Source: the human T2T-CHM13v2.0 reference genome, Homo sapiens
Direction of reading: 5' to 3'
Assembly (NCBI GenBank): GCA_009914755.4
Contig: CP068257.2
Location: 20,224,001 to 20,288,000, forward strand
DNA length: 64,000 nucleotides
Both the position numbers and the translations under genes were made by a program. A model generated the notes under the pieces. The model did no database searches. It saw nothing but the letters and a program-made list of their open reading frames with translations, and was not told where the DNA came from. This document shows positions 1,060 through 20,550 of this stretch, piece after piece; within the stretch, counting starts at the first letter, position 1, and each line of letters begins with the position of its first letter.

Positions 1060-1312
1060 GAGAAGAAAAGAAGGAAGGAAAGAAGGAAGGCAGAGAAAGG
1101 AAGAGAGAAAGAAAGAAAGAGAGAGAGCGAAAAAAGAAGAAAAAAAGAAGCAAAAGAAAGAAAGAGAAAGAAAAAGAAAGAAAGAAAGGAAAGAAAAGGA
1201 AGGAAAGAAAGGAAAGAAAAAGAAAGAAAAAGAGAAAGAAAGAAAAAGAGAAGAGAGAAATAAAGAGAGAAAGGAAGGAAGGGAAAGAAAGAAAAGAAAA
1301 GAAAGAAAACTT
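1060..1312. repeat. Long polypurine (GAAA)n/(GAAAG)n/(GGAA)n microsatellite tract of about 250 bp
   Basis: Uninterrupted A/G-only run readable in the sequence (agaaaagaaggaaggaaagaagg...gaaagaaaac). The lysine/glutamate-rich ORFs at 1004-1321 and 1056-1316 are artefacts of it. Confidence 0.95.
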
Positions 1313-10467: not shown

Positions 10468-12033
10468 AGTATGCCTTCTTTTGAGAAATGTCAATTCAGA
10501 ACTTTTGCACATTTTAAATCAGATTATTAGATTTGTTTTTCCTATAGAGTTTTTGAGCTCCTTACATATTATGGTTATTAATCCCTTGTCAAATGGATAG
10601 TTGGCAAATATCTTCTCCCATTCTGTGTGCTGTCTCTTCACTTTGTTGTTTGTTTCCTTTGCTGTGCAGAAACTTTTTAACTTGATGTTATTCCATTTGT
10701 TCATTTTTGCTTTGTTTTCCTGTGCTGTTGGAGTAATACTCAATAAATCTTTGCCGAGACTAATGTCCTCGAGGGTTTACCTAGTGTTTTATTTTAATAG
10801 TTTCATAGTTTGAGGGCTTAGATTTAAATCTTTGATCTGGATTTAGTTTTTGCATATGGTGAGAGATAGGGTCTAGTTTCATTCTTCTGCATATGGATAT
10901 TCAGTTTTTCCAGCGCCATTTATTGAAGAGACTGTTCTTTACACAAACTATATTCTTGACAGCTTCATAAGAAACAAGTTCACTGTAGATGTATGGATTT
11001 AGTTCTGAGTTTTCTATTTTTTTCTGTTGGTCTATGTGTCTGTTTTTATGCCACTACTACACTGTTTACTTACAATAGGTCTACAGCATAATATGAAACC
11101 AGGTAATGTGATTCCTCCTGTCTTGTTCTTTTTGCTGAGGATGGCTTTTGCTATTTTGGGTCTTTTTTGGGTCTTAAAATTTCCACGTAAATTTTAAGAT
11201 TTTTTTTTTTAATTTTTGTGAGAATGTCATTGGTATTTTGATAAGGATTGCATTAAATCTGTAGCTTGCTTTGGGTAGTATGGACATTTTAGCAATAATT
11301 CATTCTTCTAATCCATGAAAATGAAATATCTTTTATTTTTTTGTGTGTCCTCTTCAACTTTTTGTATCAATGTTTTATAGCTCTTATTGCAGAGATCTTG
11401 TACTTCTTTGGTTAATTCCTAGGTATTTTATTTTATCTGCAGTGTTTGTAAATGAGATTACTTTCTTGATTACTTTTCAGAATGTTCGCTATTGGCATAT
11501 AGAGATGCTACTGATTTTTGTATGTTGATTGTTTGTCCTAAAACCATAAACCTAAAACCTAAAACCACCTCTAAGGTAAAATACTTGTGTTAAAAAAAAA
11601 AAGGAAAGCGGGGTACAGTGTACATCACACACAAGGCCCAGCAATCTCTTGCACGTAACATTTACTACTTTGACCACGTCAACCTTATCTATCAAAGTAG
11701 CCATCCATTAATTCCTTCCCACACTCCCTTTTTCTTTTCCAGTTCTAACTTCTTATTGAAATAAGTATAATTTCACATGCCAATAAACATGAATATGTTT
11801 ATCAGTTCTAATAGATTTTTTTTTGTGGAATCTTTAGGTTTTTCTAATATAGAATCATATAATCTTCAAACAAGGACAGTTTTACTTCTTCCTTCCCAAT
11901 TTGGATGCCTTTTATTTTTTTCTTTTGGCTGATTGCTGTAGCTAGGACTTCCATTGCTATTTTGAAAAATCGTGGTGAACGTGGGCATCCTTGTCATATT
12001 CCGGATATTAGAGCAAAGGCTTTCTGTTTTCCC

Positions 12034-20235: not shown

Positions 20236-20550
20236 GGCTGGGCGCGGTGGCTCACACCTGTAATCCCAGAATTTTGGAAGGCCGAGGTGGGCAGATCACG
20301 AGGTCAGGGGTTCAAGACCAGCCTGGCCAACATGGTGAAACCTCATCTCTACTAAAAATAAAAAAATTAGCCAGGCATTGTGCCAGGCACCTGTAATCCC
20401 AGCTACTACATCAGGTAAACTCAGGAGGCTGAGGCAGGAGAATCACTTGAAACCAGAAGGCAGAGGCTGCAGTGAGCTAAGATCGCGCCACTGCACTCCA
20501 GCCTGGGCGAAAGAGCGAAACTTCGTCTCAAAAAAAGAAAAAAAATAGAT
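20236..20550 (+). mobile_element. Full-length AluS-like SINE carrying a 14-bp insertion (ACATCAGGTAAACT) in the right arm
   Basis: ggctgggcgcggtggctcacacctgtaatcccagaattttggaaggccgaggtgggcagatcacgaggtcaggggttcaagaccagcctggccaacatggtgaaacc...cccagctactACATCAGGTAAACTcaggaggctgaggcaggagaatcacttgaa...cactgcactccagcctgggcgaaagagcgaaacttcgtctcaaaaaaag. Confidence 0.95.

What the first reader, a model, noticed from the sequence alone, without database searches (positions are those of the whole stretch)
20236..20550. Alu carrying an unusual 14-bp insertion (ACATCAGGTAAACT) that is shared exactly with a second Alu 13 kb away
The right arm reads cccagctactACATCAGGTAAACTcaggaggctgagg, instead of the consensus cccagctactcgggaggctgagg. 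The minus-strand Alu at 33196-33449 has exactly the same 14 bp at exactly the same position (reverse complement cccagctactACATCAGGTAAACTcaggagcctgagg). Elsewhere the two copies differ mainly by independent CpG decay. None of the other roughly 15 Alus in the window has the insertion. Two independent identical insertions are implausible. The likely explanations are (a) both derive from a minor Alu source lineage defined by this insertion, or (b) gene conversion between the two copies. On the sense strand the insertion creates CAG|GTAAAC, a near-consensus 5' splice-donor-like motif.
Basis: seen in the sequence. Interest (0 to 1): 0.6.

Follow-up and report, generated by a model that had tools for sequence, protein, structure and literature searches.

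The report
Short gene-conversion tract between two Alus
Two Alu repeats 13 kb apart share an odd 14-bp insertion, most likely because a patch of at most 62 bp was copied from one into the other by gene conversion; this is a clearly marked example of a known process, not a new Alu family.

Summary
ACATCAGGTAAACT lies at the same Alu position in a full-length Alu (A1, 20236-20545, +) and in a 5'-truncated Alu inside an old L1 (A2, 33195-33447, -). No other Alu in the window has it. None of 86 published human Alu consensus sequences contains it.

The two Alus do not share a source. Measured against the 20 published AluS consensus sequences, A1 carries the AluSq4 signature (153G, 205A, 210A, 272A). 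A2 has the AluSx/Sg/Sz state at each of those sites. Discordant sites at 153/156 and 205 bracket a 62-bp block (48 consensus columns plus the insertion) in which the copies differ once. Outside the block they differ about once every 5.6 columns.

Option (a), one insertion-bearing source lineage, is contradicted.

- The direction of conversion is unresolved, with a weak lean towards A1 as donor.
- The genome-wide copy number of the insertion could not be measured with these tools.
- The CAG|GTAAAC donor-like motif is present, but nothing shows that it is used.

This is an ordinary mechanism with an unusually clear marker. Interest is low to moderate.

The parts
20236..20545 (+). A1: full-length AluS of AluSq4 type, with an A7GA8 tail at 20530-20545
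   Evidence: Best published consensus is AluSq4. It carries Sq4 states at 20386 (position 153 G), 20452 (205 A), 20457 (210 A) and 20519 (272 A).
20408..20421 (+). 14-bp insertion ACATCAGGTAAACT in A1, equally readable as ACTACATCAGGTAA at 20405-20418. The donor-like CAG|GT falls at 20412-20414|20415-20416.
20390..20451 (+). Inferred conversion tract in A1, given as its maximum extent: AluSx positions 157-204 plus the insertion, 62 bp. There is one mismatch to A2, at 20428.
   Evidence: Bounded by discordant sites 20386 and 20389 (positions 153 and 156) on the left and 20452 (position 205) on the right.
33195..33447 (-). A2: 5'-truncated AluS of AluSx/Sg/Sz type (consensus ~64-282) with a pure A22 tail at 33195-33216, inserted in an old L1
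   Evidence: Best published consensus is AluSx/Sg/Sz, and AluSq4 is 6 events worse. It has the Sx state at 33360 (position 153, T derived from C), 33294 (205 C), 33289 (210 G) and 33227 (272 G). L1 context is shown.
33325..33338 (-). The same 14-bp insertion in A2, on the reverse strand
33295..33356 (-). Inferred conversion tract in A2, given as its maximum extent, 62 bp. There is one mismatch to A1, at 33318 (position 181, G to C).

Best explanation
A1 and A2 are two independent retrotransposition events from different AluS source genes. A1 is AluSq4-type and A2 is AluSx/Sg/Sz-type. A private 14-bp insertion arose once, in one of them, after integration. It was later copied into the other by short-tract non-allelic (ectopic) gene conversion between the two inverted elements, which lie 12.9 kb apart.

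The tract is at least the 14 bp and at most 62 bp (AluSx positions 157-204 plus the insertion).

Shown here: the insertion is identical in sequence and position in both copies. The two copies are independent integrations. Their subfamily backgrounds differ on both sides of the block. The block is unusually alike.

Inferred: the molecular route (homologous repair or heteroduplex formation with repair of a 14-nt loop), that the exchange was directly between these two copies, and the direction. A1 as donor is weakly favoured, because both CpGs in the tract are CpA. That fits A1, which has CpA at 10 of its 20 other CpGs, better than A2, which has CpA at 2 of its 15 other CpGs.
For: (1) Independent integrations. 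The flanks are unrelated. A1 is full-length. A2 is 5'-truncated, has its own pure A22 tail abutting an A-rich L1 target, and lacks about 44 bp of L1 at the junction.

(2) Different sources. Against the 20 published AluS consensus sequences (PMC3672193 Text S1), A1 fits AluSq4 best, with 8 mismatches plus 1 gap against 12 for AluSx. A2 fits AluSx/Sg/Sz best, with 8 mismatches against 13 plus 1 gap for AluSq4. At the sites that separate Sq4 from Sx, A1 has 153G, 205A, 210A and 272A. A2 has the Sx state at all six assessable sites. In 160 Alus, 205A and 210A each occur 3 times, counting A1. They occur together only in A1, where 0.06 co-occurrences are expected. The chance that an Sx-derived copy shows 4 or more of 6 specified states is about 1e-5.

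(3) Mosaic pattern. The discordant sites 153/156 and 205 bracket the insertion. Between them there is 1 difference in 48 columns, against 30 in 167 columns outside (Fisher p=0.002 with post-hoc bounds). A class-preserving permutation anchored on the insertion gives p=0.015. Only 2-3% of random Alu pairs with similar outside divergence have 1 or fewer differences in this block, where the median is 5-6.

(4) The insertion is not a catalogued subfamily marker. It is absent from 86 published consensus sequences and from their 11 known indels.

(5) The literature fits. Alu-Alu conversion is documented, is often partial, and is reported to act over about 10 kb with an effect that falls with distance (PMC8230782).
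Against: - No outgroup or orthologous locus could be examined, so the pre-conversion state has not been seen.
- The genome-wide copy number of the insertion is unknown. A third insertion-bearing copy could be the true donor.
- The statistical excess of identity in the block is modest (p about 0.015-0.09, depending on the test), and the block limits were read from the data.
- The three shared CpG-to-CpA changes carry no weight, because that much overlap with A1's many CpA sites is expected by chance (hypergeometric p about 0.55).
- A spacing of 12.9 kb is at the far end of the reported ~10 kb range.
- A1 lacks two AluSq4 states: 262 is G, and there is no clean 265.1 insertion. It is therefore Sq4-like rather than a perfect Sq4.
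Confidence: 0.78

Rival explanations
1. Both Alus descend by retrotransposition from one minor source lineage that carried the 14-bp insertion. This could include A1 being the source of A2. On this view their closeness is coincidence.
For: The insertion is identical in sequence and position. Both copies have their own A-tails and unrelated flanks, as daughters of a source would. Small secondary source lineages are common among Alus (general knowledge). The scans that found no third copy cover far less than one primate genome, because they did not recover even these two loci.
Against: A1 has the AluSq4-specific pair 205A and 210A, plus 153G and 272A. A2 has the Sx state at every one of these sites, so a common source would need 4-5 reversions or parallel changes. 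The copies share no non-CpG derived site apart from the insertion. The insertion is absent from 86 published consensus sequences. For a lineage of N copies, the expected number of pairs within 13 kb genome-wide is about N squared times 4e-6. This is my own rough estimate. It means the closeness is unexpected unless N is several hundred.
Confidence: 0.1
2. Gene conversion did occur, but the donor was a third insertion-bearing Alu elsewhere, or a member of a small insertion-bearing lineage. The exchange was not directly between A1 and A2.
For: The mosaic pattern shows only that at least one copy acquired the block by recombination. It does not identify the partner. The copy number of the insertion in the genome is unmeasured.
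Against: This needs an extra, unobserved element and still leaves the 12.9 kb closeness of the two carriers as coincidence. No third copy exists in the 64-kb window or in any scanned collection.
Confidence: 0.08
3. The shared insertion is an artefact (assembly or sequencing error) or arose twice independently.
For: None specific. Repeat-rich regions can be misassembled.
Against: The two copies sit in unrelated unique flanks and differ at 31 of 215 columns, so they are not collapsed reads of one element. An identical non-templated 14-mer arising twice at one site has a chance of about 4^-14. Other insertions at this site are tandem duplications.
Confidence: 0.02

Closest known systems
Non-allelic (interlocus) Alu-Alu gene conversion, including partial conversion that yields hybrid elements (Doronina et al. 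2021, PMC8230782; Aleshin & Zhi 2010 and Roy et al. 2000 as cited there)
   Same: Two paralogous Alus at separate nearby loci. A short internal segment is shared, while the flanking diagnostic positions keep each element's own subfamily identity. The spacing is on the order of the ~10 kb range reported for homogenisation of neighbouring Alus.
   Different: The published screens detect conversion through changes of subfamily-diagnostic bases (AluS/AluY hybrids) across orthologous loci. Here the tract contains no diagnostic base and is visible only because it carries a private 14-bp insertion. No orthologous comparison was possible. The tract is short, at most 62 bp.
Indel-defined Alu subfamilies, for example the AluYb8/9 7-bp duplication (245.1-245.7), the AluYc5 12-bp deletion (87-98) and the AluYh3a3 19-bp deletion (243-261), listed in PMC3672193 Table S1
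   Same: A multi-base indel in the Alu body is shared by more than one copy.
   Different: Those indels occur in tens to hundreds or more of unlinked copies on one consistent diagnostic background. This insertion is seen in two linked copies on two different backgrounds, and it is absent from all 86 published consensus sequences.
Recombinant Alu source genes, for example AluSx4 proposed to derive from AluSq4 x AluSx3 (PMC3672193)
   Same: It involves exchange between AluSq4-type and AluSx-type sequences and produces a mosaic.
   Different: That case concerns a recombinant that went on to act as a source gene and founded a subfamily. Nothing here suggests that either copy was later active.
Creation of 5' splice sites in Alus leading to exonisation
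   Same: A mutation inside an Alu creates a donor-like motif, CAG|GTAAAC, which matches MAG|GTRAGT at 7 of 9 positions with 7 contiguous U1-pairing positions from -3 to +4.
   Different: Most known Alu exons come from antisense Alus. This motif is on the Alu sense strand. No host gene, upstream acceptor or transcript evidence was available.

Membership tests
Non-allelic Alu-Alu gene conversion event | The two elements are independent integrations at distinct loci (different flanks, tails and truncation) | tested here: met
   The flanks are unrelated. A1 is full-length. A2 is 5'-truncated inside an L1 and has its own A22 tail.
Non-allelic Alu-Alu gene conversion event | Mosaic pattern: a shared private variant or variants inside a tract flanked on both sides by discordant diagnostic positions | tested here: met
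   A1 has 153G, 205A, 210A and 272A (AluSq4). A2 has the Sx state at all of these sites. The insertion lies between positions 153/156 and 205.
Non-allelic Alu-Alu gene conversion event | The tract is significantly more alike than the rest of the elements | tested here: met
   There is 1 difference in 48 columns against 30 in 167. Anchored permutation gives p=0.015. The empirical tail is 2-3%. Support is modest, and some alternative tests give p of 0.05-0.1.
Non-allelic Alu-Alu gene conversion event | An orthologous locus in an outgroup species shows the pre-conversion state | not testable with these tools
   No primate genomes are available. No annotated gene was found in the window through which to fetch orthologous DNA.
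Non-allelic Alu-Alu gene conversion event | The partners lie within the reported range of neighbour homogenisation (~10 kb) | tested here: inconclusive
   The spacing is 12.9 kb, and the reported range is 'about 10 kb, inversely proportional to distance' (PMC8230782).
Alu subfamily or source lineage defined by the 14-bp insertion | The marker is present in multiple unlinked copies | tested here: inconclusive
   There were 0 hits for the junction 20-mer in the viral, genome and metagenome collections and 0 among insertions at this site. These collections did not contain even the two known loci, so coverage of the primate genome is far below 1x.
Alu subfamily or source lineage defined by the 14-bp insertion | Carriers share one diagnostic background | tested here: not met
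   The backgrounds are AluSq4-type and AluSx/Sg/Sz-type.
Alu subfamily or source lineage defined by the 14-bp insertion | The marker is present in a catalogued consensus | tested here: not met
   It is absent from 86 consensus sequences covering 73 subfamilies and from their 11 indels.
AluSq4 (for A1) | Sq4 diagnostic states relative to AluSx: 65 del, 153G, 205A, 210A, 262A, 265.1 insA, 272A | tested here: met
   States 153G, 205A, 210A and 272A are present, and positions 64-65 are deleted. Position 262 is G, and the 265.1 insertion is not clearly present. A1 is therefore Sq4-like, with 4-5 of 7 states, including the Sq4-specific pair.
Functional Alu-derived 5' splice site | Match to the donor consensus | tested here: met
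   CAG|GTAAAC matches MAG|GTRAGT at 7 of 9 positions, read directly from the sequence. No MaxEnt score was computed.
Functional Alu-derived 5' splice site | The site lies in a transcribed gene on the matching strand, and spliced transcripts use it | not testable with these tools
   No transcript data are available, and no gene was recognised in the window.

The most novel reading that the evidence does not exclude
The 14-bp insertion creates the strongest sense-strand 5' splice donor in an Alu. Conversion has placed it on both strands of the locus (A1 on +, A2 on -), so a transcript in either direction meets one such donor. If the site is used, this would be an example of gene conversion spreading a functional motif between transposable elements. 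Alternatively, the insertion marks an uncatalogued micro-lineage with further genomic members on mixed backgrounds.
Probability: 0.07. Interest if true: 0.4.

Novelty: new member of a known kind. Interest (0 to 1): 0.22.

Why it matters
Conversion between dispersed repeats is usually invisible, because the partners are so alike. Here a private, non-duplicative 14-bp insertion tags the tract, and the subfamily-diagnostic bases on either side limit it to 62 bp or less. This gives a clean single-locus example of three things: very short tracts can move a 14-nt heterology between inverted Alus about 13 kb apart, a shared indel is not by itself evidence of a subfamily, and divergence-based ages or subfamily calls for Alus can be locally misleading. 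It adds an example to a known process and does not change understanding of it.

Tried and rejected
(1) Exact scans for the junction 20-mer in viral, bacterial-genome and metagenome collections gave 0 hits. A control scan showed that the viral set contains no ordinary Alus. The bacterial set contains at least 120 human-contaminant Alus, all without an insertion. These data cannot bound the copy number.

(2) I ran a protein-level search using the frame-joining peptide ...[16 protein letters not shown]... created by the insertion. It returned only 53 candidates, and none contained TTSGKL. An exact look-up of the window's own 56-aa ORF found nothing on record. A first attempt failed because the query was shorter than the 40-aa minimum.

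(3) I tried to fetch orthologous primate loci through an annotated gene. No gene was recognisable. The only GC-rich region is an LTR12-like LTR, and there were no Rfam hits.

(4) I considered the shared CpG-to-CpA changes (positions 152, 176, 198) as evidence of common descent and rejected them. A1 has CpA at 11 of its 17 right-arm CpGs, so that much overlap with A2's 4 CpA sites is expected by chance (hypergeometric p about 0.55).

(5) My first empirical control set was biased, because it excluded every Alu that matched my own search pattern. I replaced it with a fairer set.

(6) I looked for a local template for the 14-mer. There is none in the window. Weak resemblances to ACTCAGG and to the antisense left arm are at chance level.

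(7) The AluY fragment next to A2 starts at consensus position ~172. This is a coincidence, and it has no insertion.

(8) A literature search for the 14-mer found one unrelated paper on NQO1, which I did not open. Aleshin & Zhi 2010 is not held in the library.

Full report
**Observation.** The 14-mer ACATCAGGTAAACT occurs exactly twice in the 64-kb window, at 20408-20421 (+) and 33325-33338 (-). No further match appears with up to 2 mismatches, and an 18-mer spanning the junction finds only these two with up to 3 mismatches. Both copies lie in Alu right arms, between AluSx consensus positions 171 and 172. The placement is ambiguous by 3 nt because ACT flanks the insertion on both sides. A BLAST inventory with Alu consensus sequences finds about 15 full or near-full Alus (AluJ, S and Y) plus fragments in the window, and none of the others has the insertion.

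**Anatomy of the two elements.**
- A1 (20236-20545, +) is full-length with an A7GA8 tail.
- A2 (33195-33447, -) starts at about consensus position 64-68 and has a pure A22 tail.
- A2 lies inside an old L1. Compared with a paralogous L1 copy at 10651-11056, about 44 bp of L1 are missing at the junction and there is no target-site duplication.
- The flanks of A1 and A2 are unrelated.

These are two separate integration events, not a segmental duplication.

**Is the insertion a known subfamily marker?** The supplement of PMC3672193 lists 86 published human Alu consensus sequences covering 73 subfamilies. Neither junction, nor the core of the insertion, occurs in any of them. The 11 indels that distinguish known subfamilies lie at 65-66, 87-98, 177.1, 190, 201.1, 206.1, 243-261, 245.1-7, 259, 265 and 266-267. 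None is at this site.

**Searches for further copies.**
- The junction 20-mer has no exact match in the viral, bacterial-genome or metagenome collections.
- The bacterial collection holds at least 120 human-contaminant Alus, all without an insertion.
- A relaxed metagenome scan for any 8-20 bp insertion at this site found 8 Alus. All 8 carry simple tandem duplications of neighbouring Alu sequence.
- A protein search built on the reading-frame junction that the insertion creates found nothing relevant.
- The collections did not contain even the two known loci, so they cover far less than one primate genome. They cannot bound the genome-wide copy number.

They do show that the 14-mer is unusual in kind. 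It is not a duplication, so it makes a reliable single-origin marker.

**Distribution of differences.** Over 215 aligned consensus columns, A1 and A2 differ at 31: 16 at CpG positions and 15 elsewhere. The differences are uneven. Between positions 157 and 204 (48 columns plus the 14-bp insertion, 62 bp in all) there is one mismatch, against 30 in the other 167 columns.
- A permutation that keeps the CpG and non-CpG classes and is anchored on the insertion gives p=0.015 for a segment this long with at most 1 mismatch, and p=0.09 for the mismatch-free segment.
- My first control used other Alus but was biased by my own search pattern. With a corrected sample of 74 Alus, only 2-3% of pairs with similar outside divergence have 1 or fewer differences in this block. 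The median is 5-6. The block evolves only slightly more slowly than the rest of the element, with a per-site ratio of about 0.8.
- The three shared CpG-to-CpA changes are not evidence of common descent. A1 has CpA at most of its CpGs, so overlap is expected by chance.

On its own this evidence is suggestive, not decisive.

**The decisive evidence: different subfamily backgrounds.** I compared both elements with the 20 published AluS consensus sequences, ignoring CpG transitions.
- A1 fits AluSq4 best, with 8 mismatches plus 1 gap in the shared region, against 12 for AluSx.
- A2 fits AluSx/Sg/Sz best, with 8 mismatches, against 13 plus 1 gap for AluSq4.
- At the positions that separate AluSq4 from AluSx, A1 has 153G, 205A, 210A and 272A, and a deletion at 64-65.
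- A2 has the AluSx state at all six assessable positions. Its T at 153 is a CpG transition from the Sx C.
- In 160 Alus (the window plus human-contaminant contigs), 205A and 210A each occur three times, counting A1. They occur together only in A1. Their joint presence in A1 therefore reflects subfamily origin, not chance (about 1e-5).

The nearest discordant sites, 153/156 on the left and 205 on the right, bracket the near-identical block. The block itself contains no subfamily-diagnostic position. Each element keeps its own subfamily identity on both sides of the shared insertion-bearing segment.

**Interpretation.** This mosaic is what short-tract non-allelic gene conversion produces. It cannot arise from simple descent of both copies from one insertion-bearing source, which would require 4-5 reversions or parallel changes.

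The literature documents Alu-Alu conversion, most of it partial. Homogenisation of neighbouring Alus is reported to extend to about 10 kb (PMC8230782). The two copies here are 12.9 kb apart and inverted.

My own rough estimate is that a lineage of N copies would produce about N squared times 4e-6 pairs within 13 kb genome-wide. This also makes coincidental closeness of two lineage members unlikely unless the lineage has several hundred copies.

I therefore put about 0.78 on local gene conversion between A1 and A2. I put about 0.08 on conversion from an unsampled third carrier, about 0.10 on a common lineage, and about 0.02 on artefact or independent origin.

**Direction and date.** Both CpGs inside the tract are CpA in both copies. 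A1 has CpA at 12 of its 22 CpGs (10 of the 20 outside the tract), in an unbroken run from position 57 to 213. A2 has CpA at only 2 of its 15 CpGs outside the tract. This favours A1 as donor by roughly 4- to 12-fold. Against that, A1 has no private non-CpG change inside the tract, although about 2.6 would be expected. The direction is unresolved, with a weak lean to A1 as donor. One mismatch in 58 non-CpG sites dates the event very loosely, with a point estimate of about 4-9 Myr and a 95% range from under 1 Myr to over 20 Myr.

**Splice-donor motif.** On the Alu sense strand the insertion creates CAG|GTAAAC, which matches MAG|GTRAGT at 7 of 9 positions and lacks +5G and +6T. No gene was recognised in the window. 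It is AT-rich (36.8% GC). Its only GC-rich segment is an LTR12-like LTR, and there are no Rfam matches. Use of the site could not be tested.

**Verdict.** This is a new, unusually well-marked instance of a known process. It is not a new Alu family or a new mechanism.

Noticed in passing
window 33195-33460 and 10651-11056: A2 appears to have integrated with a small target deletion instead of a target-site duplication. Compared with a paralogous L1 copy, about 44 bp of L1 are missing between the 5' junction and the A-rich site that abuts the A22 tail. The 5' junction shows microhomology (GGATATC in the L1, GGATCAC in the Alu). This looks like a retrotransposition-associated deletion.
   Followed up: partly
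window 33629-33758 (-): This is a separate 5'-truncated AluY-type right arm, about 200 bp from A2 in the same L1. It starts at consensus position ~172, the same position as the insertion site, and has an (AAC)n-rich tail. It has no insertion, so the shared position looks coincidental. It contains GCAGTCC, a Yb-lineage-like change.
   Followed up: partly
window 20236-20529 (A1): CpG decay in A1 is strongly one-sided, with 12 CpA against 2 TpG and an unbroken CpA run from consensus position 57 to 213. The other 14 Alus in the window pooled give 80:75. The uncorrected p is 0.013, which is not significant after testing 15 elements. The cause is unknown.
   Followed up: partly
window ~45900-47100 (+): The only GC-rich part of the window is an LTR12/HERV9-type LTR with tandem 41- and 119-bp units containing CCAAT boxes, followed by an AATAAA region. 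It is not a gene promoter CpG island. I identified it by eye from the sequence, not by a database match.
   Followed up: partly
L001-L120 (genome contigs), e.g. L053 5454-5481: At least 120 stretches of DNA from species-representative bacterial assemblies contain human Alu sequence. Most are tiny low-coverage contigs. One hit lies in a record titled 'Georgenia sp. SUBG003 chromosome, complete genome', and several 8-10 kb contigs of a Roseivirga MAG carry multiple Alus. This looks like human contamination of public bacterial assemblies.
   Followed up: no
L121-L128 (metagenome contigs): All 8 Alus found with an 8-20 bp insertion after CCCAGCTACT carry tandem duplications of adjacent sequence (CAGCTACT, CGGGAGGCTGAGG, GTAATCCCAGCTACT and similar). 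This suggests the site is prone to slippage.
   Followed up: partly
window 1067-1308; 47361-47753; 53327-53857: There is an (AAAG)n-type purine-rich microsatellite at 1067-1308. At 47361-47753 overlapping ORFs on both strands translate to simple repeated peptide motifs, which suggests low-complexity repeat DNA. I did not read that DNA, and the tandem-repeat scan listed nothing there. Tandem repeats of 24, 41 and 61 bp lie at 53.3-53.9 kb. All of these generate long spurious ORFs.
   Followed up: no
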